From: a virus
IMG/VR virus record: IMGVR_UViG_3300042335_000796
Coordinates: 27,524-91,523 of that record
Direction: 5' to 3' (one strand)
DNA length: 64,000 bases
Both the position numbers and the translations under genes were made by a program. Shown one piece after another: positions 47,904 through 48,068 of the stretch; the stretch's first letter is position 1, and the number at the start of each line of letters is the position of its first letter. The notes beneath the pieces were generated by a model. It made no database searches and was not told where the DNA came from. It worked only from the letters and a program-made list of their open reading frames with translations.

Positions 47904-48068
47904 AAGTTTTAAAATTCGTTTAAAACTTGTTTATCACATGTAACAATGGGATAAACGTGCTGGTTGTACAGCACATGGTGACCAATGAATAAACATTGGA
48001 AGTTCAAACTTGGGAAAGTAATTTCCACTCACCAAATACCTTTTTATTATTTCAAAGGTTGTTACAAC
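47904..48068 (+). ncRNA. tracrRNA/omegaRNA-like scaffold with type V-F/TnpB-like topology
   Basis: Consecutive hairpins. Loop GTTGTA (47963-68) is complementary to the repeat 3' end TACAAC. The 3' segment ATACCTTT...GGTTGTTACAAC is complementary to the repeat. Confidence 0.7.

What the first reader, a model, noticed from the sequence alone, without database searches (positions are those of the whole stretch)
47904..48068. Scaffold upstream of the array has the two-anti-repeat pseudoknot topology of Cas12f-type tracrRNA
Seen, in order: stem AAGTTTTAAA/TTTAAAACTT (47904-47928); stem GTTTATC/GATAAAC; hairpin GTGCTG-[GTTGTA]-CAGCAC (47957-47974) whose loop is the exact complement of the repeat's last 6 nt TACAAC; a multibranch domain closed by TGGTGA/TCACCA (47976-48034) with three small hairpins; then ATACCTTT (pairs with repeat AAAGGTAT) and GGTTGTTACAAC (12 bp complementary to repeat GTTGTAACAACC). 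Established: type V-F/V-K tracrRNAs pair with the repeat twice, through a short loop pseudoknot next to the spacer and a longer 3' duplex. From memory, the Un1Cas12f1 tracrRNA has a similar GCTG-loop-CAGC hairpin followed by a GGAAAGTAA-containing stem. Inference: the array serves a compact type V/TnpB-derived effector in trans.
Basis: partly seen in the sequence, partly recalled or inferred. Interest (0 to 1): 0.85.

Follow-up and report, generated by a model that had tools for sequence, protein, structure and literature searches.

The report
Orphan Cas12f guide scaffold in phage
A giant lake phage carries the folded helper RNA of a miniature CRISPR nuclease (Cas12f), already joined to its first guide and followed by a three-repeat guide array, but with no nuclease gene on the 91.5 kb of the phage that is assembled; it is a recognisable variant of a known system, not a new principle.

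Summary
Window 47904-48068 folds as described (z -4.3 to -5.2 against shuffles). It belongs to a conserved RNA family. A covariance model built only from homologous scaffolds beside cas12f genes in other phage and metagenome contigs hits window 47929-48068 at 98 bits (E 1e-18). Stems covary. The hairpin loop GUUGUA tracks the last six repeat bases: UACAAC in most loci, GUUGUG with CACAAC in others. Published Al3Cas12f and Un1Cas12f1 guide RNAs have the same layout.

One detail is wrong. GGTTGTTACAAC is not the long anti-repeat. It is a cis half-repeat ("repeat 0"), usually placed 30 nt before repeat 1, so the scaffold plus spacer 0 is a natural single guide heading the array. The true anti-repeat is AAAUACCUUU.

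My first reading (a type VI-B array for host Cas13b) was rejected, although the repeat shares its 3' 19 bases with genuine Cas13b repeats.

No cas12f or cas13b lies on the 91.5-kb contig (31% complete). A 93%-complete syntenic relative has cas12f directly after the homologous array, where this phage has a GOLLD RNA.

This scan has noted similar phage Cas12f layouts on other DNA. Expression and nuclease partner are untested.

The parts
47711..47761 (+). Promoter copy P1 (TTGAC ... TAACTTTG; Bacteroidota-type -33/-7 boxes)
   Evidence: Direct repeat D2, two 51-nt copies 111 nt apart. The match to the Bacteroidota TAnnTTTG consensus is from established knowledge; it is not covered by the sigma-70 scan.
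47822..47872 (+). Promoter copy P2, the likely start of the scaffold-array transcript
   Evidence: Second copy of D2, 86% identical. Relatives have a TAnnTTTG box in the same position before their scaffolds.
47888..47898 (+). GTTCTTTGAAA, a boxA-like motif at the 5' end of the transcript
   Evidence: The same motif precedes the scaffold in L163, L207, L283, L259 and L165 (as CGTTCTTTAACA), and precedes GOLLD in L104. Its resemblance to E. coli boxA (GCTCTTTAACAA) is from established knowledge. Function not tested.
47904..47928 (+). Stem A, an optional 5' hairpin
   Evidence: MFE fold. The longer Al3Cas12f sgRNA2 has an analogous dispensable 5' hairpin. Stem A is not part of covariance model R1.
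47929..47956 (+). Stem B, a hairpin abutting the pseudoknot hairpin
   Evidence: Folding each homologue on its own gives a hairpin at this position with unrelated sequence. The equivalent in Al3Cas12f is CCCCUUCGGGG.
47957..47974 (+). Pseudoknot hairpin GUGCUG[GUUGUA]CAGCAC; loop at 47963-47968
   Evidence: The stem is 93% paired, and 4 of 6 pairs carry compensatory changes. The loop is conserved and complements the repeat end; it reads GUUGUG or CUUGUG where repeats end CACAAC.
47976..48034 (+). Four-way junction closed by UGGUGA/UCACCA, with three hairpins
   Evidence: MFE fold. The first hairpin has 5 of 6 pairs with compensatory changes, and the closing stem is nearly invariant. CACUCA is shared with the Al3Cas12f tracrRNA.
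48034..48043 (+). Anti-repeat AAAUACCUUU
   Evidence: Invariant core AAAUAC.UU across the family. It pairs 8 bp with repeat AAAGGUAU, and 6 bp in cis with 48054-48059.
48054..48068 (+). Cis half-repeat ('repeat 0') AAAGGUUGUUACAAC; the last 6 nt pair with the loop
   Evidence: It ends exactly 30 nt before repeat 1. The same 30-nt register is seen in L165, L166, L283a and L283b (29 nt in L298). The consensus in relatives is GGTATATACAAC.
48069..48098 (+). Spacer 0, the guide of the natural single-guide RNA
   Evidence: 30 nt, GC 0.40 against 0.27 for the genome. No match in the phage's own contig.
48099..48266 (+). CRISPR mini-array: three 36-nt repeats (48099, 48165, 48231) and two 30-nt spacers
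   Evidence: Repeat family D1, period 66. Spacers have GC 0.57 and 0.47.
48309..49107 (+). GOLLD RNA directly downstream, probably on the same transcript (a neighbour, not part of the scaffold)
   Evidence: Rfam RF02032 at 48707-49107, 311.7 bits. The start of the 5' domain is shared with 7 other viral GOLLD loci. No + strand terminator lies between array and GOLLD.

Best explanation
Window 47904-48068 is the guide-RNA scaffold (tracrRNA equivalent) of a phage-borne type V-F (Cas12f) CRISPR system.

Proposed mechanism:
1. The scaffold is transcribed from the duplicated promoter at 47711-47872 (inferred).
2. It folds into two 5' hairpins, a hairpin presenting the loop GUUGUA, and a four-way junction (shown by folding and covariation).
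3. The anti-repeat AAAUACCUUU pairs with the AAAGGU... segment of a repeat. The loop GUUGUA pairs with the repeat's last six bases UACAAC, next to the spacer, forming the pseudoknot typical of Cas12f guide RNAs (pairing inferred; loop/repeat-end covariation shown).
4. In this family the scaffold runs in cis into a half-repeat followed by a 30-nt spacer. The first guide is therefore a natural single-guide RNA (shown from the register).
5. The repeat-spacer units downstream supply further crRNAs that would pair with the scaffold in trans (inferred).
6. The RNA would load a dimeric Cas12f nuclease with intact RuvC residues, as encoded beside the homologous scaffolds in relatives (inferred). That gene is not on this contig. 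It must come from the unassembled roughly two thirds of the phage genome, from the host, or from a co-resident element.
For:
- Homologues: scaffold plus array occur in at least 11 other loci. The same architecture appears when each is folded alone.
- Covariation: 84.9% of cells are paired, 18 pairs change on both sides, and 0 of 500 shuffles reach this. Slid controls give 34-49% paired.
- Membership: model R1, built only from scaffolds next to cas12f genes, finds window 47929-48068 at 98 bits, E 1.3e-18, full length.
- Effector in relatives: the ORFs directly upstream are TnpB/Cas12f (NF040570 150-177 bits, PF07282, PF01385). The best solved relative is Al3Cas12f (E 8e-50). The RuvC residues D216, E313 and D398 and the zinc-ribbon cysteines are invariant.
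- Pseudoknot: the loop tracks the repeat end. GUUGUA goes with UACAAC in most loci, GUUGUG with CACAAC in L259, and CUUGUG with CACAAC in L302 and L022. Published sgRNAs show the same rule: Al3Cas12f GUUGGA with UCCAAC, Cas14a/Un1Cas12f1 CUUGCAU with AUGCAAC.
- Same predicted fold order as the Al3Cas12f sgRNA.
- Register: half-repeat to repeat 1 is 30 nt in the window and in four other loci.
- Relative: the phage is syntenic with the 93%-complete 310-kb contig G001 (45 of 79 ORFs). There the homologous scaffold and array are followed directly by cas12f and a second scaffold.
Against: - No cas12f or TnpB gene is on the 91.5-kb contig. In every relative examined the gene is within about 1 kb of a scaffold.
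- Transcription of the scaffold is not shown.
- The cis half-repeat differs from the family consensus at three positions (UGU for AUA).
- No target was found for any spacer.
- The repeat also looks like a type VI-B repeat.
Confidence: 0.8

Rival explanations
1. Orphan type VI-B mini-array. The repeats are Cas13b direct repeats and the phage borrows the host's Cas13b. The upstream structure is only a leader, and its complementarity to the repeat is a by-product of a degenerate, hairpin-forming first repeat.
For: - The repeat is 36 nt with 30-nt spacers and the form GTTG...TTTGAAAGGTA.A.ACAAC.
- That pattern hits 36 genome loci, almost all labelled Bacteroidota (one Ignavibacteria, one unclassified). 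Five of six large adjacent ORFs tested are Cas13b at 783-989 bits.
- Flavobacterium jejuense and Niabella have Cas13b and repeats with the identical 3' 19-mer.
- The repeat is 24/36 self-complementary, so any repeat copy looks partly like an anti-repeat.
Against: - The 'leader' is a conserved structured RNA with covarying stems. In relatives it sits next to cas12f, not cas13b.
- Pedobacter, Sphingobacterium and Olivibacter genomes carry the same repeat type but lack Cas13b. The first two have minimal scaffolds and a truncated TnpB/Cas12f-like gene.
- No cas13b is on the contig.
- VI-B systems need no tracrRNA (established knowledge).
Confidence: 0.05
2. Decaying remnant. The phage lost cas12f, and the position after the array is now occupied by a GOLLD RNA. 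The scaffold and three repeats are left without function.
For: - No effector on the contig.
- In the syntenic relative G001, cas12f follows the homologous array directly, whereas GOLLD follows here.
- There are only three repeats, and the half-repeat has three substitutions.
Against: - All stems are intact. All family-invariant bases are kept, and the model score of 98 bits equals that of scaffolds beside intact genes (95-122 bits).
- The element sits behind a duplicated promoter.
- About 69% of the genome is unassembled.
Confidence: 0.1
3. Guide-only hijack or decoy. The phage deliberately carries scaffold and guides without a nuclease. Its purpose would be to reprogram or to saturate a Cas12f or nuclease-dead Cas12f of the host or of a rival element, comparable to viral mini-arrays and RNA anti-CRISPRs.
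For: - Minimal versions of the same scaffold, with the same repeat 3' end, occur in Pedobacter, Sphingobacterium, Parapedobacter and Niabella loci. In the Pedobacter and Sphingobacterium loci they sit beside truncated TnpB/Cas12f-like genes of about 369 aa.
- Spacers are GC-richer (0.40-0.57) than the phage (0.27), so they come from foreign DNA.
Against: - No host is identified.
- The window's scaffold is of the long phage type, not the minimal bacterial type.
- The simplest reading is a nuclease gene in the missing two thirds of the genome.
Confidence: 0.05

Closest known systems
Type V-F CRISPR-Cas12f tracrRNA/sgRNA, closest Al3Cas12f (Alistipes sp.; PDB 9NZO/9NZR; PMC13186708), also Un1Cas12f1/Cas14a1 and AsCas12f1
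   Same: - The order of elements is the same: a 5' hairpin, a hairpin whose 6-nt loop complements the last bases of the repeat, a closed multi-stem domain ending in CACUCA, an anti-repeat, then the repeat's 3' part and the spacer.
- The effector beside the homologous scaffolds is most similar to Al3Cas12f (E 8e-50).
   Different: - The literature describes canonical Cas12f nucleases as using separate crRNA and tracrRNA. Here the scaffold is joined in cis to a half-repeat and spacer, and it heads the array.
- The middle domain is a four-way junction rather than the long bent stem predicted for the Al3Cas12f sgRNA.
- No nuclease gene is adjacent in this window.
Natural single-guide RNAs of nuclease-dead Cas12f in Bacteroidota (dCas12f-sigmaE; PMC12259090 and bioRxiv 10.1101/2025.06.10.658880)
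   Same: - Bacteroidota Cas12f lineage, with the guide scaffold contiguous with the guide.
- Minimal relatives of this scaffold lie beside truncated (~369 aa) TnpB/Cas12f-like genes in Pedobacter and Sphingobacterium.
   Different: - The published guides are fixed 14-16 nt sequences for gene regulation, and the sigmaE-linked type has no array.
- Here the guides are 30-nt variable spacers in an array.
- The relatives' proteins keep the RuvC catalytic residues.
TranC, transposon-CRISPR intermediates (Jin et al., Cell 2025, doi 10.1016/j.cell.2025.09.004; seen only through PMC13565253 and bioRxiv 10.64898/2026.03.27.714800)
   Same: A single omega-RNA-like guide and CRISPR-array guides coexist around a compact TnpB-derived nuclease. 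In G001 and G002 a second scaffold overlaps or follows the 3' end of the nuclease gene, like an omega RNA.
   Different: The effector in relatives scores as Cas12f, not as a TranC clade. I could not read the primary paper, so I do not know whether this lineage is covered.
Type VI-B (Cas13b) CRISPR arrays of Bacteroidota
   Same: 36-nt repeat, 30-nt spacers, and an identical 3' 19-mer TTTGAAAGGTATATACAAC in genuine Cas13b arrays.
   Different: VI-B has no tracrRNA-like scaffold. The scaffold family here travels with cas12f.

Membership tests
Cas12f (type V-F) guide-RNA scaffold / tracrRNA | Hairpin loop complementary to the last 5-6 nt of the repeat (pseudoknot next to the spacer) | tested here: met
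   GUUGUA against UACAAC in the window. The pairing is conserved and covaries across homologues. The same rule holds in published Al3Cas12f and Cas14a sgRNAs.
Cas12f (type V-F) guide-RNA scaffold / tracrRNA | Anti-repeat near the 3' end of the scaffold pairing with the 3' part of the repeat | tested here: met
   AUACCUUU (48036-48043) pairs 8 bp with repeat AAAGGUAU. The core is invariant in the family. This helix is 92% paired.
Cas12f (type V-F) guide-RNA scaffold / tracrRNA | Homology to scaffolds encoded beside cas12f genes | tested here: met
   Model R1, built without the window, scores 98 bits, E 1.3e-18, over its full length.
Cas12f (type V-F) guide-RNA scaffold / tracrRNA | A cas12f gene in the same locus or genome | tested here: not met
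   None on the 91.5-kb contig (NF040570 search; tblastn best E 1.7). The contig is only 31% complete, so the genome as a whole is untested.
Cas12f (type V-F) guide-RNA scaffold / tracrRNA | Separate tracrRNA and crRNA (dual guide) | tested here: not met
   The scaffold continues in cis into a half-repeat and a 30-nt spacer. This is a departure in organisation, not in fold.
Cas12f (type V-F) guide-RNA scaffold / tracrRNA | Stable expressed RNA that forms a ribonucleoprotein with Cas12f | not testable with these tools
   The available sequencing data give no information on whether the scaffold is transcribed. Binding needs experiments.
Type VI-B CRISPR array | 36-nt GTTG...ACAAC repeat with 30-nt spacers | tested here: met
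Type VI-B CRISPR array | Association with cas13b and absence of a tracrRNA-like RNA | tested here: not met
   No cas13b on the contig. A conserved Cas12f-type scaffold directly precedes the array.
GOLLD RNA (RF02032) | The scaffold being part of the GOLLD transcript's conserved structure | tested here: not met
   The Rfam match covers 48707-49107, and the conserved 5' domain starts near 48309. None of 62 other viral GOLLD loci has the scaffold or an array.
TranC (transposon-CRISPR intermediate) | Effector belonging to a defined TranC clade | not tested
   The primary paper is not held. The effectors in relatives score best as Cas12f.

The most novel reading that the evidence does not exclude
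The scaffold's anti-repeat and loop complement exactly the 15-nt repeat end AAAGGUAUAUACAAC. This segment is identical in genuine Cas13b (type VI-B) repeats of some Bacteroidota, such as Flavobacterium jejuense and Niabella. The phage's Cas12f scaffold could therefore pair with a host's VI-B pre-crRNA and turn the host's RNA-targeting spacer library into DNA-targeting guides. Equally, the phage array could be filled by the host adaptation machinery that serves VI-B arrays. This would be cross-type piracy of CRISPR repeats by a phage-borne guide module.
Probability: 0.05. Interest if true: 0.9.

Novelty: new variant of a known kind. Interest (0 to 1): 0.55.

Why it matters
The locus adds a natural example to a current question: how the single omega RNA of TnpB split into tracrRNA and crRNA, and later fused again in nuclease-dead Cas12f.

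- In this jumbo-phage lineage, whose Cas12f in relatives keeps its catalytic residues, one transcript carries both forms. There is a ready-made single guide (scaffold, half-repeat, spacer) and then ordinary repeat-spacer units.
- It shows that such a guide module can sit apart from any nuclease gene, behind a duplicated promoter and directly before a GOLLD RNA whose function is still unknown.
- The scaffold family gives compact, naturally fused guide designs for Cas12f relatives of Al3Cas12f, which is of practical use.
- The shared repeat end with Cas13b arrays raises a testable question about cross-talk between CRISPR types in Bacteroidota.

Tried and rejected
1. First reading: a type VI-B mini-array with a degenerate first repeat and no tracrRNA. 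I rejected it after finding the scaffold family next to cas12f genes.
2. The exact 36-nt repeat was not found in viral contigs, genome contigs or metagenome contigs. A looser VI-B-style pattern gave nothing in viral contigs.
3. 62 viral GOLLD loci were checked for the scaffold or an array: none has either. GOLLD was absent from 14 loci carrying the scaffold family or related arrays and from G001. The GOLLD link is therefore a single case.
4. 55 loci found through the neighbouring 115-aa gene: only L104 is syntenic. It has tRNA-Met and small hairpin RNAs in place of scaffold and array.
5. Spacer targets: no credible hit in cultured phages. The 20-nt seeds of spacers 1 and 2 are absent from viral contigs. 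There is no self-match in the contig or in any fetched locus.
6. Laid reads: the one RNA run (contigs only) has an identical contig on the GOLLD 5' domain and no cover over scaffold or array, which says nothing about expression. DNA runs show a near-identical variant. They also show a diverged relative in which the scaffold is followed by a repeat, but those sequences could not be retrieved.
7. The scaffold pattern in 401 sampled Bacteroidota genomes gave 2 hits, no more than the reversed-pattern control. This is uninformative about hosts.
8. Rfam at a permissive threshold gave only a weak DUF2693 RNA hit over 47888-47974 (16.9 bits, E 2), taken as chance.
9. Model R1 gave weak hits at window 16601-16732 and 16844-16929 (E 0.012 and 0.16), taken as noise.
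10. The 'Cas12 hacker' paper concerns a different, larger phage Cas12 and a host protein, not this family.

Full report
**Observation.** Downstream lie three 36-nt repeats (48099, 48165, 48231) with 30-nt spacers, period 66. For 47904-48032 the energy is -37.9 kcal/mol (z -4.34). For 47873-48068 it is -52.5 kcal/mol (z -5.20). None of 200 dinucleotide shuffles folded as well. The loop GTTGTA complements the repeat's last six bases. ATACCTTT complements repeat positions 22-29. GGTTGTTACAAC complements positions 1-12.

**Context.** The window is part of an IMG/VR virus contig of 91,523 bases, estimated 31% complete. It is recovered from lake-water metagenomes. Its GC content is 0.27. Upstream are two copies of a 51-nt promoter-like unit. 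Directly downstream is a GOLLD RNA (RF02032, 311.7 bits, 48707-49107). The GOLLD 5' domain begins near 48309.

**First reading, later rejected.** The repeat has the form GTTG...TTTGAAAGGTA.A.ACAAC, is 36 nt long and has 30-nt spacers. That pattern hit 36 genome loci, almost all labelled Bacteroidota (one Ignavibacteria, one unclassified). Five of six large adjacent ORFs tested are Cas13b at 783-989 bits. The stretch 48033-48068 sits exactly one period before repeat 1. I therefore took it for a degenerate first repeat of a type VI-B array. One thing did not fit. This unit aligns better to the reverse complement of the repeat (score 17, 0 of 2000 shuffles) than to the repeat itself (score 11, 5 of 2000).

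**Homologues change the picture.**
- Scanning viral contigs for the repeat's 3' 19-mer, and viral and metagenome contigs for the conserved CWCTCACYAAATACYTT, gave at least 11 further loci with the same upstream scaffold followed by similar repeats.
- Folded one by one, each homologue gives the same architecture. A hairpin sits directly before a hairpin with a 6-nt loop. A domain closed by GGUGA/UCACC follows. Then AAAUACCUU pairs with a partial repeat, leaving ...ACAAC single-stranded.
- On a 10-sequence alignment, 84.9% of cells are paired and 18 pairs change on both sides. None of 500 shuffles reaches this, and slid controls give 34-49% paired.
- The loop hairpin has compensatory changes in 4 of 6 pairs: GUGCUG/CAGCAC, GGGUG/CACCC, GGGUUG/CAACCC, GAGGUG/CACCUC. 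The first junction hairpin has them in 5 of 6 pairs.

**The associated protein.**
- In L165, L234, L298, L323 and L259, an ORF of 438-476 aa ends just upstream of, or runs into, the scaffold.
- All five are RNA-guided TnpB-family proteins (NF040570 150-177 bits against a cut-off of 100; PF07282 Cas12f1-like TNB; PF01385).
- The best solved relatives are Al3Cas12f from Alistipes (9NZO/9NZR, E 8e-50), then CnCas12f, AsCas12f, RhCas12f and OsCas12f.
- The RuvC residues (GIDLG, MED, DAD) and four zinc-ribbon cysteines are invariant. These proteins are therefore predicted to be active nucleases.

**Membership test.** I built covariance model R1 only from scaffolds of those cas12f loci, leaving the window out. 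It finds window 47929-48068 at 98 bits, E 1.3e-18, over the full model. This is the same range as scaffolds beside intact genes (95-122 bits).

**Comparison with published guide RNAs.**
- The Al3Cas12f sgRNA (supplement of PMC13186708) contains CCCCUUCGGGG, then GGGCGC[GUUGGA]GCGCC, a closed multi-stem domain ending in CACUCAAAAAAUUCACUUGA, an engineered GAAA link, and the repeat part UCAAGUGAAUAUCCAAC. Its loop GUUGGA complements the repeat end UCCAAC.
- The Cas14a/Un1Cas12f1 sgRNA (PMC12955468) has GGCUG[CUUGCAU]CAGCC and a repeat end AUGCAAC.
- Folding the Al3Cas12f sgRNA and the window scaffold side by side gives the same order of elements.

**Loop and repeat end covary.**
- Most loci have loop GUUGUA with repeats ending UACAAC.
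- L259 has GUUGUG with CACAAC.
- The minimal scaffolds of L302 and L022 have CUUGUG with CACAAC.
- L283a and L323 show G-U wobbles. L298 has one mismatch.
- The changes occur in at least two separate branches of the family.

- The conserved anti-repeat is AAAUACCUUU (48034-48043).
- The 12-nt GGTTGTTACAAC corresponds in relatives to GGTATATACAAC, the 3' part of a repeat in direct orientation.
- It ends exactly 30 nt before repeat 1 in the window and in L165, L166, L283a and L283b (29 nt in L298, 20 in L234, 33 in L323).
- It is therefore a 'repeat 0' whose 5' half has been replaced by the scaffold. Scaffold, half-repeat and spacer 0 together form a natural single guide, which is what engineers build with a GAAA link.
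- In the window, three substitutions (AUA to UGU) make this half-repeat perfectly complementary to the 5' 12 nt of repeat 1. This is not conserved in relatives, and I cannot say whether it matters.
- The 30-nt segments after the half-repeat differ between relatives. They behave as spacers, not as a fixed regulatory guide.

**The nuclease question.**
- The contig has no TnpB/Cas12f gene (tblastn with the G001 protein, best E 1.7) and no Cas13b gene.
- The phage is a syntenic relative of G001, a 310,691-base contig rated 93% complete. 45 of 79 ORFs match, collinear over about 63 kb.
- G001 has one cas12f gene. On its minus strand the order is: scaffold A, five repeats, cas12f (475 aa), scaffold B at the gene's 3' end, a half-repeat, a 30-nt guide, and one repeat.
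- G002 has the same two-scaffold layout.
- In this window the place after the array is taken by GOLLD instead.
- The gene may lie in the unassembled roughly 69% of the genome, may be supplied by a host or another element, or may be lost. I put these at roughly 0.5, 0.3 and 0.15.

**The Cas13b resemblance.**
- F. jejuense and Niabella have Cas13b and repeats with the identical 3' 19-mer.
- Pedobacter, Sphingobacterium and Olivibacter carry the same kind of repeat without Cas13b. Pedobacter and Sphingobacterium have minimal versions of the scaffold and truncated (~369 aa) TnpB/Cas12f-like genes.
- These loci resemble the nuclease-dead Cas12f described in Bacteroidota. According to those papers, dCas12f uses natural single guides, while canonical Cas12f nucleases use separate crRNA and tracrRNA.
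- The conserved 3' half of the repeat is exactly the part that pairs with the scaffold. Why genuine VI-B repeats share it is unexplained. A shared adaptation machinery is one possibility. Cross-use of transcripts is the most novel reading my evidence does not exclude.

**Other observations.**
- Spacers have GC 0.40-0.57 against 0.27 for the phage. They have no match in the contig or in the phage collections searched.
- No + strand terminator separates the array from GOLLD.
- A boxA-like GTTCTTTGAAA follows the promoter here, in several relatives, and before GOLLD in L104. One long untranslated transcript is plausible but not shown.

**Novelty.** This is a new variant of a known kind. The fold and its partner family are known (type V-F). 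The cis-fused first guide heading an array, two scaffolds flanking one gene in relatives, and an effector-less copy placed before a GOLLD RNA are organisational variants. They relate to the TnpB-to-Cas12 'RNA splitting' story (Jin et al. 2025, known to me only through). This scan has already noted comparable phage Cas12f layouts on other DNA. I therefore score interest as moderate.

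Noticed in passing
window 48309-49107: A full GOLLD RNA (RF02032, 311.7 bits) lies directly after the CRISPR mini-array, with no + strand terminator between them. None of 62 other viral GOLLD loci has an array or scaffold upstream, so this looks like a one-off juxtaposition. An identical 233-nt contig of its 5' domain (48357-48589) occurs in a freshwater metatranscriptome run.
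   Followed up: partly
L104:2380-3640 (- strand): A syntenic relative has three tandem copies of a Bacteroidota-type promoter driving tRNA-Met and two small hairpin RNAs. A GTTCTTTGAAAAAA motif and GOLLD follow, in the place where this window has scaffold and array.
   Followed up: partly
window 47888-47898; also L163, L207, L283, L259, L165: A boxA-like motif, GTTCTTTGAA(A) (CGTTCTTTAACA in L165), sits shortly after the promoter of the scaffold-array transcripts. It may be a Nus-type antitermination signal for a long untranslated RNA. Its pairing with the half-repeat loop in the window's MFE fold is not conserved.
   Followed up: partly
G001:C1:61795-63880 (L348, L166, L207) and L347: In two related jumbo-phage contigs, one cas12f gene is flanked by two different scaffolds. 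One heads a 5-or-more-repeat array upstream. The other overlaps or follows the gene's 3' end like an omega RNA and carries one guide and one repeat.
   Followed up: partly
L021 (Pedobacter cryoconitis), L022 (Sphingobacterium sp.), L020/L010/L035 (Parapedobacter), L351 (Niabella): Bacterial genomes carry several copies of a minimal version of the scaffold, in which the junction is reduced to one hairpin, together with the same repeat 3' end. In Pedobacter and Sphingobacterium, truncated TnpB/Cas12f-like genes of about 369 aa lie nearby. These are probably the array-associated nuclease-dead Cas12f noted in PMC12259090.
   Followed up: partly
L038:119-3508: A 1130-aa ORF lies next to four VI-B-like repeats in a Bacteroides MAG and has no NCBIfam match at all, unlike the five Cas13b neighbours tested alongside it.
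   Followed up: no
window 48057-48110: The variant half-repeat GGUUGUUACAAC and the first 12 nt of repeat 1 could form a perfect 12-bp helix enclosing spacer 0 as a 30-nt loop. The three substitutions that make it perfect fall exactly on the three mismatches of the normal repeat hairpin. This is not seen in relatives.
   Followed up: partly
window 1-38000 versus G001: The window is collinear with a 310-kb, 93%-complete jumbo-phage contig over about 63 kb of the contig (window 1 to about 38000). This supports the estimate that only about a third of this phage is assembled.
   Followed up: yes
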